A stretch of DNA of 7,800 bases from a virus (taxonomy: Duplodnaviria > Heunggongvirae > Uroviricota > Caudoviricetes). Below are positions 3,001 through 6,000 of the stretch, one piece after another. The stretch's first letter is position 1. Every line of letters begins with the position of its first letter. The stretch lies in IMG/VR virus record IMGVR_UViG_2529293076_000033, positions 1 through 7,800 of that record. The stretch is one strand, 5' to 3'. The position numbers are program-made.

Positions 3001-6000
3001 CATCAACGAAGAAGAAGACAAGAACGGCACAATTGATATCCCGAATGAACACGGAACAACAAATCGCGCCGTAGTATATAACGGGAAGCATGGGTTTATG
3101 ACGATATATCCCAGTCCCATTCGTTTTGCCTTACAACAGTATATTGAATGGAATTTAATTCAAAAATACGGCGAGGCAGAAGGAATGGGTAGAGCGCTGT
3201 TTCTTTATCAGAAAATGCTCATTACATGCCCAGATAAAGGTTTCATTGTTTCAGACATGGGGCGAGAAGGGCTTGAACTCCTTCTGGATGAAATTATTAA
3301 CGAAATGAATACTCATAGCATGCAATCAGAAACCTCTATTAACTAAAAGGGACTACATGACCGTTATCGAATATATCCAGGAAAATCCAGATTGCAGTAG
3401 AGAAGATATATCCCTCGCACTTGGAAGAAGCGGAGTTTCTATCAGTAATGAATTATCACGGTTACTGTGGAATGGGTTAATTGTACGAACTGGTGAAAAA
3501 AACAAAATGATTCTGTATCGCGTAAACAATCTGCCGTTTGGATACAACAATCCCCTGAGCGTTATGTTCAACCAGTTACTTAAACAGGTAAGAAAGTCTG
3601 ATGGCGACTGACTCACAACTAACCATAGATACGGCTCTTAATGTCGGTCTGGCGCTCCTTGGTTATTTCTACATCATGTTCTGCAGCGGACGATGGCTGT
3701 CACTGTTGTTCATGAAAAAATGGAATAAACGCCGTAAGCAGGATCAACGCCAGAAGGCAATGGATGCATTTTTCGAAGCCTTCGGGATTGACGGCATGGA
3801 ACCAGGGGATCCAGCTCGCGCAATTAGCAGAGGGGGCGTAGTAATCCTTGTATATCGGAGTGAAGAGAAAAATGAGCGAGATCAACTATCAGGCACTGCG
3901 TGAGGCGGCAGTAGCAATTGAAACAGTAGCAACGCCTCAAAAATTGCTGGCATTTCGTATGAAAGTCACACCGTCGGTGGTACTGGCGCTGCTGGATGAA
4001 CGAGATGCATTAAACGAACGCATAGCCGAACTGGAGGCTAATTTAGCGGAGCTGGCCGAAGACCAACAGAAAGCGATTGAGTCAATTAAGCAGGCTGATG
4101 CGGCTGTTAAGTTGGCACACGAGAAGTTTTCGGTGCTGGCGGCAGAGAATGCGGAGCTTAAACAGTCGGAGAAGGAATTTAATAACTTCTGTCGTCAGGA
4201 GTACTACGGTTGGGAGGACAACTTCACGGAAACCCCAGCCACCGACGCTTTCCTGGCTGAAATTCGTGCGGCGGCTCGCAACGAGGGTATTAACTATACC
4301 GCAAGCCGTCTTGCTGCTGCTTTCAATCACGGATTTATCAATAAGTCTTTGCGTGAAGTTTTCGACGTTACACGCATGATTTTATCAGCGAAAGAAGAGT
4401 TGGCTAATGAAGCGCATCCGATTGATGGCCTGTCTGGTGAATATGCGGAGAAATCCCTTGAAGAATGGGCGGAACAGATTCGCAAAGGAGGAAACCAGTG
4501 AGCAAGATTGACTATCAAGAACTTCGTGAAGCAGCAGTAGCAATTGAAACAGTAGCAACGCCTCAAAAATTGCTGGCATTTCGTATGAAAGTCACACCTC
4601 AGGTTGTGCTGGCTCTACTGGATGAACGGGAAAGAAACCAGCAATACATCAAACGCCGCGACCAGGAGAACGAGGATATTGCGCTTACGGTAGGGAAGCT
4701 GCGCGTTGAGCTTGAAGCAGAAAAACAGCGGGCAAAAGTTCTATTTATGGAAAATGCTCGGCTTAAGTCAGGCATAGCCGGTCTGATACACCTCGGTCAA
4801 TATGCAGATATTGAGGTCATGAGAATTGCTGGAGATGCCCAGCTTTCTACCCCATGCACTGACAGCATCATAAAAAGCATTGCAACAGGCATTCGCATCA
4901 AAGGAGAGTGAGATGAACGGACAAATCTCAATTGTTCTACCGGGAGCATGTGACGATCGCGAGATACGAATGATTATTCGTCTGGCGATGGGGAAAACAA
5001 TAACTGCTCTCATTACTCCAGAAAATCTCGCATTAGCATTAACCGGAAAGTCAGACCTGCCAGTAGAGCTAAAGCTGCGAAATGTTGAGATTAAGGTGAA
5101 ATAGCTATGACCACTATTACCGACAAAGAGCTAATTAGAGAAATTAAAGAACATATCAGCAGTCTGGGGGGGGGCGGACAATATTGAGCGCCGTGCTTAT
5201 GAAATTGCGTTGACTGCATTGACCGCTGAACCATTCGCCACTATCGACACCGCGGGAATTGAGCTCGTTAAATATGGTTGTAACACGTTTATTTGTCCCG
5301 ACAATTCGATGGATCCGGGAAATGTACCGCTATATATCGGCCTGCCACGAATTGAGCCAGCAAGCCAGACTGCCAAGCTGTCATTCCAGGAATGGTTGTC
5401 AGAACAAAAAGAAAAAATAGACGTTGATTGCGGATGTGTAAGCATCGAAACGCTTACGCACTGGATGAAATCAGCTTATGAGGCTGGCAACTCTCCGGTA
5501 ACTCCGGATGGTTGGATAAGCTGTAGTGAGCGAATGCCAGAAATGGGAGAGCGACAATGCTATGTGTTAGCAGCTGACTTTAAAAACAACTACCCACCAA
5601 ACATCCCCAACACTCAGGTCGGCGTATATGGCGACTGGTTTAATGATGGCAATCCCACTTGGGATGACGGTGATGGCGAAGACCTGTATCTCAAAGAGGT
5701 AACCCACTGGATGCCTCTACCAGAACCGCCGCAGGAGGTGAAATGATGAATTGGCCTGAAGCATTCACCGCAGTTGGAGTTGCAATAGCGGTGGCATTTA
5801 TTCTGTATTCGCTTTTCCGCTGGGGATAAAGGAATGTTCGCGCTGATTCAACGTGGTCAGATATACAGAGCCGGATACCCTGTGGTGATTATTCGCAGTA
5901 CTCAGCACTCAGTGTTCTTTCGACGCATGGACGGGTGCTCCGGACGGGTACGCATTGGTGAGTTCAACAACCTGTTCGAACATATTGACCAACAGGAGTA

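What the first reader, a model, noticed from the sequence alone, without database searches (positions are those of the whole stretch)
3872..4911. Tandem Ea22-like paralogues sharing a perfectly identical 65-nt core with diverged C-terminal domains
Two adjacent, translationally coupled genes begin with nearly the same ~40 residues (E/K-I-N/D-YQ-A/E-LREAAVAIETVATPQKLLAFRMKVTP...LALLDER). At the DNA level, 3908-3972 and 4534-4598 are 65/65 identical while flanking codons differ at synonymous and non-synonymous positions, after which the proteins diverge completely (209 vs 137 aa, both with coiled-coil stretches). A perfectly conserved core inside otherwise diverged copies points to recent gene conversion or modular domain shuffling. 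The 626-bp direct repeat is also a substrate for deletion or duplication, so copy number may vary between strains. Function of this family is unknown.
Basis: seen in the sequence. Interest (0 to 1): 0.5.

Follow-up and report, generated by a model that had tools for sequence, protein, structure and literature searches.

The report
Tandem Ea22 genes share one cassette
Two neighbouring early genes of a Shiga-toxin-type E. coli prophage carry the same 65-base swappable segment, an ordinary product of phage gene shuffling, and related strains have lost one gene by recombination exactly within that segment.

Summary
Window 3908-3972 and 4534-4598 are 65/65 identical inside a 144-nt direct repeat (85% identity, spacing 626 nt). 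No core codon differs (0/21), against 16/23 flank codons (p = 6e-7).

Both genes pass Pfam's Ead_Ea22 threshold and lie in the early-left operon of a prophage next to yecE. The same segment is 100% identical in nine Stx-type phage genomes.

The identical run coincides with a hypervariable N-terminal cassette ("X", aa 13-34). It lies between a family-wide leader (xSxIxYQALREAA) and junction (TPxxVLxLLDE). The same X allele precedes about 17 unrelated gene bodies elsewhere. Each window gene body occurs elsewhere with other cassettes. The identity is therefore a circulating allele and need not be conversion between these two copies.

Tandem Ea22 arrays of one to three genes are common. In the sampled loci, only this lineage has X in both genes.

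The predicted consequence is observed twice. Strain 6629 and assembly GCA_012668845.1 each equal their own tandem relative minus exactly 626 bp. The junction lies inside the core, with 2-3 other differences in 7-11 kb.

Ea22 mosaicism and its pro-lysogenic role are already published. This is a well-documented case of a known kind, of modest interest.

The parts
3601..3903 (+). Upstream DUF4752 gene; overlaps the start of gene 1 by 32 nt. It serves as the left anchor of the locus in all relatives.
   Evidence: Pfam PF15944, 132.8 bits; RefSeq annotation.
3872..4501 (+). Ea22-like gene 1 (209 aa): leader, cassette X, junction, coil A, a C-terminal domain, and the tail RKGGNQ*.
   Evidence: Pfam PF13935, 40.8 bits against a cutoff of 27; WP_001289911.1 in RefSeq; exact protein on at least 1000 contigs.
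3872..3907 (+). Leader of gene 1 (MSEINYQALREA). It is conserved across the family and polymorphic at synonymous sites.
3908..3972 (+). Copy 1 of the 65-nt identical core = cassette X (aa 13-34, AVAIETVATPQKLLAFRMKVTP).
3973..4005 (+). Junction of gene 1 (PSVVLALLDER). This is the rare TPS allele; most X-bearing genes have the TPQ allele.
3973..4598 (.). The 626-bp unit missing in strain 6629 and in GCA_012668845.1. The junction can lie anywhere within the identical core.
4485..4501 (+). Coupling junction AAGGAGGAAACCAGTGA: a Shine-Dalgarno sequence inside the K-G-G-N-Q codons of gene 1, with the GTG start of gene 2 overlapping the TGA stop.
   Evidence: Sequence; the same junction occurs 37 times in the fetched loci.
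4498..4911 (+). Ea22-like gene 2 (137 aa): leader, cassette X, junction, lambda-like coil B, a short C-terminal part, and the tail IRIKGE*.
   Evidence: Pfam PF13935, 74.1 bits; 64% identical to lambda Ea22 over residues 1-78.
4534..4598 (+). Copy 2 of the 65-nt identical core = cassette X.
4599..4631 (+). Junction of gene 2 (PQVVLALLDER), the common TPQ allele linked to X in most haplotypes.
4901..4915 (+). Tail junction AAGGAGAGTGAGATG: the K-G-E codons form a Shine-Dalgarno sequence, followed by the stop, one base, and the ATG of the next gene.
4913..5104 (+). Downstream 63-aa ORF. It serves as the right anchor of the locus in relatives.
   Evidence: phrog_1222, E = 1.5e-39; RefSeq WP_001014287.1.

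Best explanation
The locus holds two different members of the mosaic Ea22 family. They lie side by side, translationally coupled, in the early-left operon of a lambdoid prophage integrated next to yecE.

Each gene is a string of exchangeable segments:
- a conserved leader;
- a hypervariable N-terminal cassette;
- a conserved junction (TPxxVLxLLDE);
- one of several coiled-coil segments;
- one of many C-terminal domains;
- a conserved tail that carries the ribosome-binding site of the next gene.

The 65-nt identity is one allele ("X") of the N-terminal cassette. X circulates almost unchanged among E. coli lambdoid prophages. It sits in both genes because of homologous exchange through the conserved flanks. 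The route cannot be resolved: exchange with other prophages, or conversion between the two copies.

Shown: the anatomy, the modular variation, and two near-isogenic relatives that lack exactly one 626-bp unit with the junction inside the core.

Inferred:
- The events were deletions from the tandem state. They arose by homologous recombination (RecA or a phage recombinase) or by replication slippage between the 65-bp repeats.
- By homology with lambda and Stx-phage Ea22, the proteins are oligomeric coiled-coil scaffolds. They present variable C-terminal domains and bias the phage towards lysogeny. Cassette X forms a short helical hairpin that caps the coil.
For: Family and setting:
- Pfam Ead_Ea22 is passed by both genes. 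Gene 2 is 64% identical to lambda Ea22 over residues 1-78.
- The genes lie in a same-strand run from a CI-like repressor to xis and int.
- The 1504-bp segment is 100% identical in 7 Stx1a phages, 1 Stx2a phage and PPyecE_EH1910.

The core equals the cassette:
- The alignment with O104:H4, O111:H2 and lambda genes puts the 65 nt exactly between leader and junction. The closest relatives of both genes carry a different 42-aa cassette.

Modularity:
- 39 viral contigs carry X, fused to about 17 different bodies.
- The gene 2 body lies behind at least 9 other cassettes.
- The gene 1 body lies behind at least 5 other N-termini.

Population allele:
- The exact 65-mer is in 73 E. coli records. A further 106 have 1-3 mismatches and 61 are 80-90% identical. 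Nearly all genomes hold one copy.
- Among 23 haplotypes, core diversity is 0.006, against 0.10 for the leader and 0.11 for the junction, and the flanks reassort.

Arrays:
- Arrays of one to three Ea22-like genes are joined by RKGGNQ*/GTGA. In the sampled loci only this lineage has X twice.

Recombination at the core:
- Strain 6629 equals O111:H8 strain 1056-1 minus 626 bp, with 2 other differences in 11.4 kb.
- L086 equals the window minus 3973-4598, with 3 other differences in 6881 nt.
- The chimeric proteins are on 43 and 2 contigs. Gene 1 is on at least 1000 contigs and gene 2 on 759.

No nucleotide-level element:
- Rfam finds nothing in this region (its single weak hit, E = 0.63, lies at 1341-1472). 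RNA folding z-scores for the three + strand segments are at or above 0; the antisense strand of the core gives z = -1.18, with 21 of 200 shuffles folding as well. The core has no promoter or terminator.

Structure:
- Both models have helices 6-18 and 22-31 and a long helix from 34, with pLDDT 76-96.

Function:
- PMC7093339 and PMC10834534.
Against: - The route by which X reached both genes is not resolved.
- The haplotype sample was selected with a 32-nt exact pattern inside the core. Only the other 33 core positions are an unbiased measure of invariance.
- Read-level data are unavailable. A collapsed assembly in 6629 or in the draft GCA_012668845.1 cannot be formally excluded. Against collapse: the 6629-type chimeric protein is on 43 contigs, and 6629 is a closed genome.
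- The reciprocal duplication product was not found. That was an exact-sequence look-up only.
- The C-terminal domains are modelled at low confidence (pLDDT 40-60). Fold searches gave nothing.
- Protein function is borrowed from lambda and phage 24B homologues and was not tested for these two proteins.
- Gene 1 lacks the K/RGE tail of described Ea22 proteins.
Confidence: 0.8

Rival explanations
1. Recent gene conversion strictly within the locus: one of the two genes copied its cassette onto the other, and that alone explains the identical core.
For: The tract of identity is sharply bounded by diverged flanks. Relatives of both genes carry other cassettes. L054 shows a plausible precursor: the same upstream gene and a gene-1-like gene with X, followed by a second gene with a different long cassette.
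Against: The identity is not specific to the pair. The same 65-mer is in 73 E. coli records and 39 viral contigs in unrelated gene bodies. An X-bearing gene of the gene 2 type also exists on its own in second position behind an RKGGN tail (L068). One ordinary exchange downstream of gene 1 would therefore build the X,X pair without any conversion.
Confidence: 0.3
2. The single-gene form is ancestral, and the tandem arose from it by insertion of the 626-bp unit.
For: Formally, the same junction is produced in either direction.
Against: Each single-gene form matches its own tandem relative on both sides, including allele-specific differences. Two independent events are therefore needed. An insertion would itself need a tandem donor. 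Tandem proteins are on at least 1000 and 759 contigs, against 43 and 2 for the chimeras.
Confidence: 0.08
3. The 65 nt are kept identical because they hold a functional DNA or RNA element, such as a small RNA, a binding site or a promoter.
For: Synonymous sites in the core are nearly invariant among sampled X-bearing genes.
Against: Rfam has no match here. The core has no promoter-like or terminator-like site. RNA folding is not better than shuffles on the + strand (z = 0.08 to 1.20), and the antisense strand of the core is only marginal (z = -1.18). Protein-level variants of X exist (EAIKVVATPQ...), as do alleles at 80-90% identity. Family members replace the whole segment with unrelated cassettes.
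Confidence: 0.03
4. Assembly artefact: the two cores are not really identical, or the tandem is a mis-assembly.
For: None found. Many database entries for this family are partial proteins at contig ends, which shows that the region does break short-read assemblies.
Against: The identical tandem is present in 8 complete genomes, 9 phage genomes and 2 viral contigs.
Confidence: 0.01

Closest known systems
Ea22 of phage lambda and the Ea22 variants V1-V3 of Stx phages (Pfam PF13935 / IPR025153)
   Same: Both genes carry the Pfam signature. The N-terminal leader and coil B are shared with lambda Ea22 (64% identity over 78 aa). The genes show the published three-part plan of N-terminal segment, coiled coil and variable C-terminal domain, and the published mosaic organisation. 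They lie upstream of xis and int in the early-left operon. Gene 2 has the IRIKGE tail (PMC10834534, PMC7093339).
   Different: - The N-terminal cassette is a short 19-aa form, unlike the 63-aa segment described for the Stx variants.
- Neither C-terminal part resembles the solved lambda C-terminal domain: sequence searches of solved structures, the alignment and the fold searches found no match.
- Gene 1 ends RKGGNQ and not K/RGE.
- Two members lie in tandem with the same cassette.
- No exo gene lies within the window.
Lambdoid phage mosaicism with conserved boundary sequences (the modular theory of Susskind and Botstein, and later comparative work on lambdoid genomes; from my own knowledge)
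   Same: Short conserved stretches at module borders (leader, junction, tails) flank unrelated segments that reassort between phages.
   Different: Here the exchange units are parts of genes, with several borders inside one gene, and the borders fall at protein-domain limits.
Deletion between short direct repeats in E. coli, by RecA-dependent recombination or RecA-independent replication slippage (established knowledge)
   Same: Exactly one repeat unit (626 bp) is lost and the junction lies within the 65-bp identity. The product is an in-frame fusion gene.
   Different: The pathway was not determined. Only the natural products are seen, not the process.
Polymorphic modular proteins with a conserved junction motif before a variable end (for example Rhs and CdiA toxins); a comparison of how it works only
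   Same: A conserved N-terminal part and a short conserved junction (LLDE) are followed by many unrelated C-terminal modules, and arrays of related genes occur.
   Different: There is no evidence of toxin or immunity function, PADLOC gives no significant hit, and the variable cassette also lies at the N-terminus.

Membership tests
Ea22 / Ead family (Pfam PF13935) | Match to the family profile above the curated cutoff | tested here: met
   Gene 1 scores 40.8 bits and gene 2 scores 74.1 bits, against a cutoff of 27.
Ea22 / Ead family (Pfam PF13935) | Direct sequence homology to lambda Ea22 | tested here: met
   Gene 2 is 64% identical to lambda Ea22 over residues 1-78. Gene 1 shares only the leader and junction.
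Ea22 / Ead family (Pfam PF13935) | Three-part plan: short N-terminal segment, long coiled coil, separate C-terminal domain | tested here: met
   AlphaFold models show helices 6-18 and 22-31, one long helix (34-110 or 34-99), then a separate helical C-terminal part of low confidence.
Ea22 / Ead family (Pfam PF13935) | Terminal K/R-G-E motif (PMC7093339) | tested here: inconclusive
   Gene 2 ends IRIKGE (met). Gene 1 ends RKGGNQ (not met). The motif coincides with the ribosome-binding site of the next gene.
Ea22 / Ead family (Pfam PF13935) | Position in the early-left (exo-xis) region upstream of xis and int | tested here: met
   The genes are on the same strand between a CI-like repressor (768-1424) and xis (6227-6481) and int (6515-7800). 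No exo gene is present in the window.
Ea22 / Ead family (Pfam PF13935) | Tetramer formation and pro-lysogenic effect | not testable with these tools
   Known only for lambda, 24B and P27 proteins (PMC7093339, PMC10834534).
Recent tandem gene duplicates | Homology along the whole length of the two copies | tested here: not met
   After residue 45 only 27% identity over 62 aa remains (E = 0.003). Each body has its own close relatives elsewhere.
Gene conversion between the two copies | A tract of identity bounded by diverged flanks | tested here: met
   0/21 core codons differ against 16/23 flank codons, p = 6e-7.
Gene conversion between the two copies | The identity is specific to the pair and not shared with unrelated loci | tested here: not met
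   The same 65-mer is in 73 E. coli records and 39 viral contigs, in many gene bodies.
Repeat-mediated deletion | A near-isogenic relative lacks exactly one repeat unit, with the junction inside the identity | tested here: met
   Strain 6629 against 1056-1 and L086 against the window.
Repeat-mediated deletion | Read-level or experimental confirmation of the junction | not testable with these tools
   No reads are available. The chimeric proteins are seen on 43 and 2 contigs.

The most novel reading that the evidence does not exclude
The N-terminal cassette may be an assembly or partner-recognition code. Arrays of co-expressed Ea22 paralogues would normally keep different cassettes so that each protein forms its own oligomer. 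In this lineage the shared cassette X would let the two paralogues co-assemble into mixed tetramers that display two different C-terminal domains. Under this reading the Ea22 array is a combinatorial, fast-evolving early regulator or counter-defence locus. The evidence does not exclude this: cassettes are hypervariable, and in the other arrays sampled here they differ between neighbours. Nothing supports it directly either.
Probability: 0.1. Interest if true: 0.55.

Novelty: new member of a known kind. Interest (0 to 1): 0.3.

Why it matters
Ea22 is the one exo-xis protein reported to push lambda and Stx phages towards lysogeny. It therefore bears on Shiga toxin release, but its mechanism is unknown.

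This locus offers natural domain-swap variants:
- the same body behind different N-terminal cassettes;
- the same cassette on different bodies;
- a natural fusion of gene 1's start to gene 2's body.

These could be compared in lysogeny assays without any engineering.

The locus is also a clean, dated example of how a 65-bp shared module changes gene number in closely related STEC prophages. That matters for prophage typing and for short-read assembly of these regions.

Beyond that, it illustrates known phage mosaicism and not a new principle.

Tried and rejected
- Short-query protein search with the 44-aa N-module returned only partial proteins at contig ends. It was useless for architecture, but shows that assemblies break here.
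- The genome-contig scan mostly returned lambda contamination in unrelated taxa. It was useful only as a source of lambda ea22.
- Sequence search of solved structures gave nothing significant for either protein.
- Fold searches of the two models against PDB and BFVD gave no match with E <= 0.001. The confident parts of the models are long helices and the C-terminal parts have low confidence.
- PHROGs gave many hits, all of unknown function, each covering a different segment.
- PADLOC gave only weak coiled-coil matches with E > 0.001.
- Rfam, the promoter/terminator scan and RNA folding gave no element in the core.
- Exact look-up of the reciprocal duplication hybrid (gene 2 leader + X + gene 1 body) found nothing.
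- Donor versus recipient of X could not be decided. X is mostly linked to the TPQ junction of gene 2, but gene-1-like genes with the TPQ junction also exist.
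Full report
**Observation**

The window holds a direct repeat, 3862-4005 against 4488-4631. It is 144 nt long, 85% identical, with start-to-start spacing of 626 nt. Its longest exact run is 65 nt, 3908-3972 = 4534-4598.

Gene 1 is 3872-4501 (209 aa, ATG start). Gene 2 is 4498-4911 (137 aa). Its GTG start overlaps the TGA stop of gene 1, and AAGGAGG lies six bases upstream. 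RefSeq calls an ATG at 4465 instead. The leader shared by all homologues begins at the GTG, and gene callers are split between the two starts.

The run is not chance. None of the 21 core codons differs, against 16 of 23 flank codons, 11 of them synonymous only (Fisher p = 6e-7). A run of at least 65 matches given 21 mismatches in 144 nt has a permutation probability of 2e-5.

**Setting**

From position 296 to 7800 the window matches complete genomes of O145:H28, O111 and other STEC-type E. coli at 99.9-100%. Compared directly, strain 10159 differs at three positions.

In those genomes the two genes are annotated "ead/Ea22-like family protein". They lie between a DUF4752 gene and a 63-aa ORF, upstream of xis and int. 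Next come a DUF72 gene, yecN, cmoA and cmoB.

The 1504-bp segment 3601-5104 is 100% identical in seven Stx1a-converting phages, one Stx2a-converting phage and phage PPyecE_EH1910. Both proteins pass Pfam's Ead_Ea22 cutoff. Gene 2 is 64% identical to lambda Ea22 over its first 78 residues.

**What the identical core is**

I aligned the two proteins with lambda Ea22 and with tandem Ea22 genes from an O104:H4 and an O111:H2 prophage. The alignment shows a common plan:
- a conserved leader, (M/V)S(E/K)I(N/D)YQALREAA;
- a segment that differs completely between members;
- a conserved junction, TPxxVLxLLDE(R);
- one of two coiled-coil types;
- a C-terminal part.

The 65 nt (codons 13-34) coincide exactly with the variable segment. 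I call this version cassette X.

The closest relative of gene 1 is in the O104:H4 prophage, and the closest relative of gene 2 is in O111:H2 strain 12A. Both carry a different 42-aa cassette.

Among 23 sampled homologues of the almost invariant gene 2 body, at least nine other cassettes occur between the same leader and junction. They range from 19 to about 65 aa. The gene 1 body occurs behind at least five other N-termini.

**The core is a circulating allele**

The exact 65-mer occurs in 73 E. coli records. A further 106 records have 1-3 mismatches and 61 are 80-90% identical. Nearly all genomes hold a single copy.

A pattern scan of viral contigs gave 39 loci, 37 with one copy and two with two copies 626 nt apart. 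In these loci X is fused to about 17 different bodies.

In L064 the same gene 1 is followed by an X-bearing gene with a different 271-aa body.

Across 23 nucleotide haplotypes the core is nearly invariant, with diversity 0.006. Thirty-two of its 65 positions were fixed by my search pattern, so only the other 33 are unbiased. The leader (0.10) and the junction (0.11) are polymorphic and reassort.

Any two X-bearing genes therefore share the 65-mer. The identity between genes 1 and 2 does not by itself show conversion between them.

**Arrays**

Ea22-like genes often form arrays of one to three. Each non-final gene ends ...RKGGNQ*, with GTGA overlapping the start of the next gene. In the other arrays found here the cassettes differ between neighbours. 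Only the window's lineage has X twice.

L054 has the same upstream gene and a gene-1-like gene with X, followed by a gene with a long unrelated cassette. It is a plausible precursor state.

**Consequence of the repeat**

Strain 6629 has the same prophage at the same site but a single Ea22 gene. That gene matches gene 1 up to and through the core, and matches gene 2 from the first base after it.

Over 11.4 kb, strain 6629 equals the tandem locus of O111:H8 strain 1056-1 minus exactly 626 bp. Only two other differences were found.

The chimera expected from the window's own allele also exists. Contig AASZXL010000024.1 of GCA_012668845.1 (L086) equals window 296-7800 minus 3973-4598, with three other differences in 6881 nt.

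Each single-gene form carries the allele-specific variants of its own tandem relative. Two independent deletions are therefore the parsimonious reading.

The chimeric proteins are on 43 and 2 contigs. Gene 1 is on at least 1000 contigs and gene 2 on 759. The reciprocal duplication hybrid was not found by exact look-up.

A third relative, OkiPb01707, carries yet another single-gene recombinant. Its switch between the gene 1 and gene 2 sequences lies in the leader. It also has a 15-nt slippage deletion inside X.

Assembly collapse cannot be formally excluded for the draft assembly.

**Alternatives tested**

- Functional RNA or DNA element in the core: Rfam gives nothing there. The core has no promoter-like or terminator-like site. 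RNA folding is no better than shuffles on the + strand, and the antisense strand of the core is only marginal at z = -1.18. Protein-level variants of X exist.
- Recent whole-gene duplication: after residue 45 only a faint motif is shared (E = 0.003).
- Assembly artefact of the tandem: it is assembled independently in 8 complete genomes, 9 phage genomes and 2 viral contigs.

**Proteins**

The AlphaFold models of both proteins agree in the N-terminal half. They have helices 6-18 and 22-31 (cassette X forms the hairpin) and one long helix from residue 34, with pLDDT 76-96. The C-terminal parts are helical but of low confidence.

Searches of solved structures, fold libraries, PHROGs and PADLOC added no function.

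From the literature:
- Deleting ea22 in lambda and in Stx phage 24B shows that it favours lysogeny (PMC7093339).
- Lambda Ea22 and Ea22 V3 (phage P27) are tetramers in solution, and the lambda C-terminal domain alone is a dimer (PMC10834534).
- ea22 genes have a mosaic organisation, and two variants can occur in one genome (PMC10834534).

I infer, but did not test, that both window proteins act in the same way.

**Novelty and verdict**

The family, its mosaic nature and its general role are published. Three points add to the papers I read: the hypervariable N-terminal cassette with conserved flanks, the same-cassette tandem, and the repeated precise deletion at the cassette.

These additions are incremental. 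I rate the finding as a new member of a known kind, with interest 0.3. One correction applies: conversion between the two copies is only one possible route and is not required.

Noticed in passing
window 4900-4915 and 4484-4501; also L041-L081: PMC7093339 calls the terminal K/R-G-E motif of Ea22 proteins of unknown significance. Here it is always encoded as AAA GGA GAG TGA N ATG. That is a Shine-Dalgarno sequence plus the start codon of the next gene, and at least six different genes follow it. 34 of 35 non-lambda copies have the ATG; lambda itself reads TGAGATC. The RKGGNQ* tail likewise holds AAGGAGG before the overlapping GTG of the next Ea22 gene.
   Followed up: partly
window 6689 (integrase gene 6515-7800): The window lacks one G that strains 10159 and 6629 and L086 all have. 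This splits the integrase gene into two ORFs (6515-6730 and 6667-7800). It is either a real frameshift that immobilises the prophage or a sequencing error.
   Followed up: partly
window 5166-5175: A run of nine G lies in a DUF551 gene remnant. Relatives have one more G, and RefSeq marks this gene as frameshifted. This is a length-variable homopolymer.
   Followed up: no
window 1-295: This is the 3' end of an IS3-family transposase gene (Pfam rve_3, E = 1.8e-12). It abuts a truncated Rha-like gene at 258-434 on the minus strand. Relatives match the window only from 296 onwards, so this insertion is specific to the window's source.
   Followed up: partly
L004-L030 and others (genome-contig hits): Dozens of assemblies of unrelated bacteria (Streptomyces, Paenibacillus, Prevotella, Shewanella and others) hold lambda ea22. 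The contigs are about 48.5 kb or under 2 kb. This is most likely phage-lambda contamination of the sequencing libraries.
   Followed up: no
window 3908-3935 (GCAGTAGCAATTGAAACAGTAGCAA); L083 3870-3930; protein P0201: Cassette X holds a 9-nt internal direct repeat (CAGTAGCAA). OkiPb01707 has lost the 15 nt between the copies (IETVA), and P0201 shows the matching duplication (VAIETVAIETVA). This is slippage inside the cassette.
   Followed up: partly
L041 1821-2950 (O104:H4 C227-11); phage hits H190-H200: Table 1 of PMC10834534 lists the O104:H4-type Stx2a phages P13363, P8983, P14437, P13771 and phiON-2011 without any Ea22 variant. RefSeq annotates a tandem pair of Ead/Ea22-like genes in the related phage P13374 and in the O104:H4 prophage of strain C227-11. 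The alignment for C227-11 confirms the leader, junction and IRIKGE tail.
   Followed up: partly
proteins P0142, P0146, P0150, P0151; alignment A1: Proteins with the gene 1 coil and C-terminal domain, but a different N-terminus (MKQMSLIEMDGFLKGK...), are named DUF4752 proteins by their sources. That N-terminus shows no obvious similarity to the window's DUF4752 protein (3601-3903). I did not check the naming.
   Followed up: no
window 5445-5467 and 5691-5713: A 23-nt imperfect direct repeat lies inside the DUF551 gene (5210-5746). Both copies encode a THWM motif. DUF551 also appears as the C-terminal module of some X-bearing Ea22 genes (L046, L079), so the neighbouring gene shares modules with the Ea22 family.
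   Followed up: no
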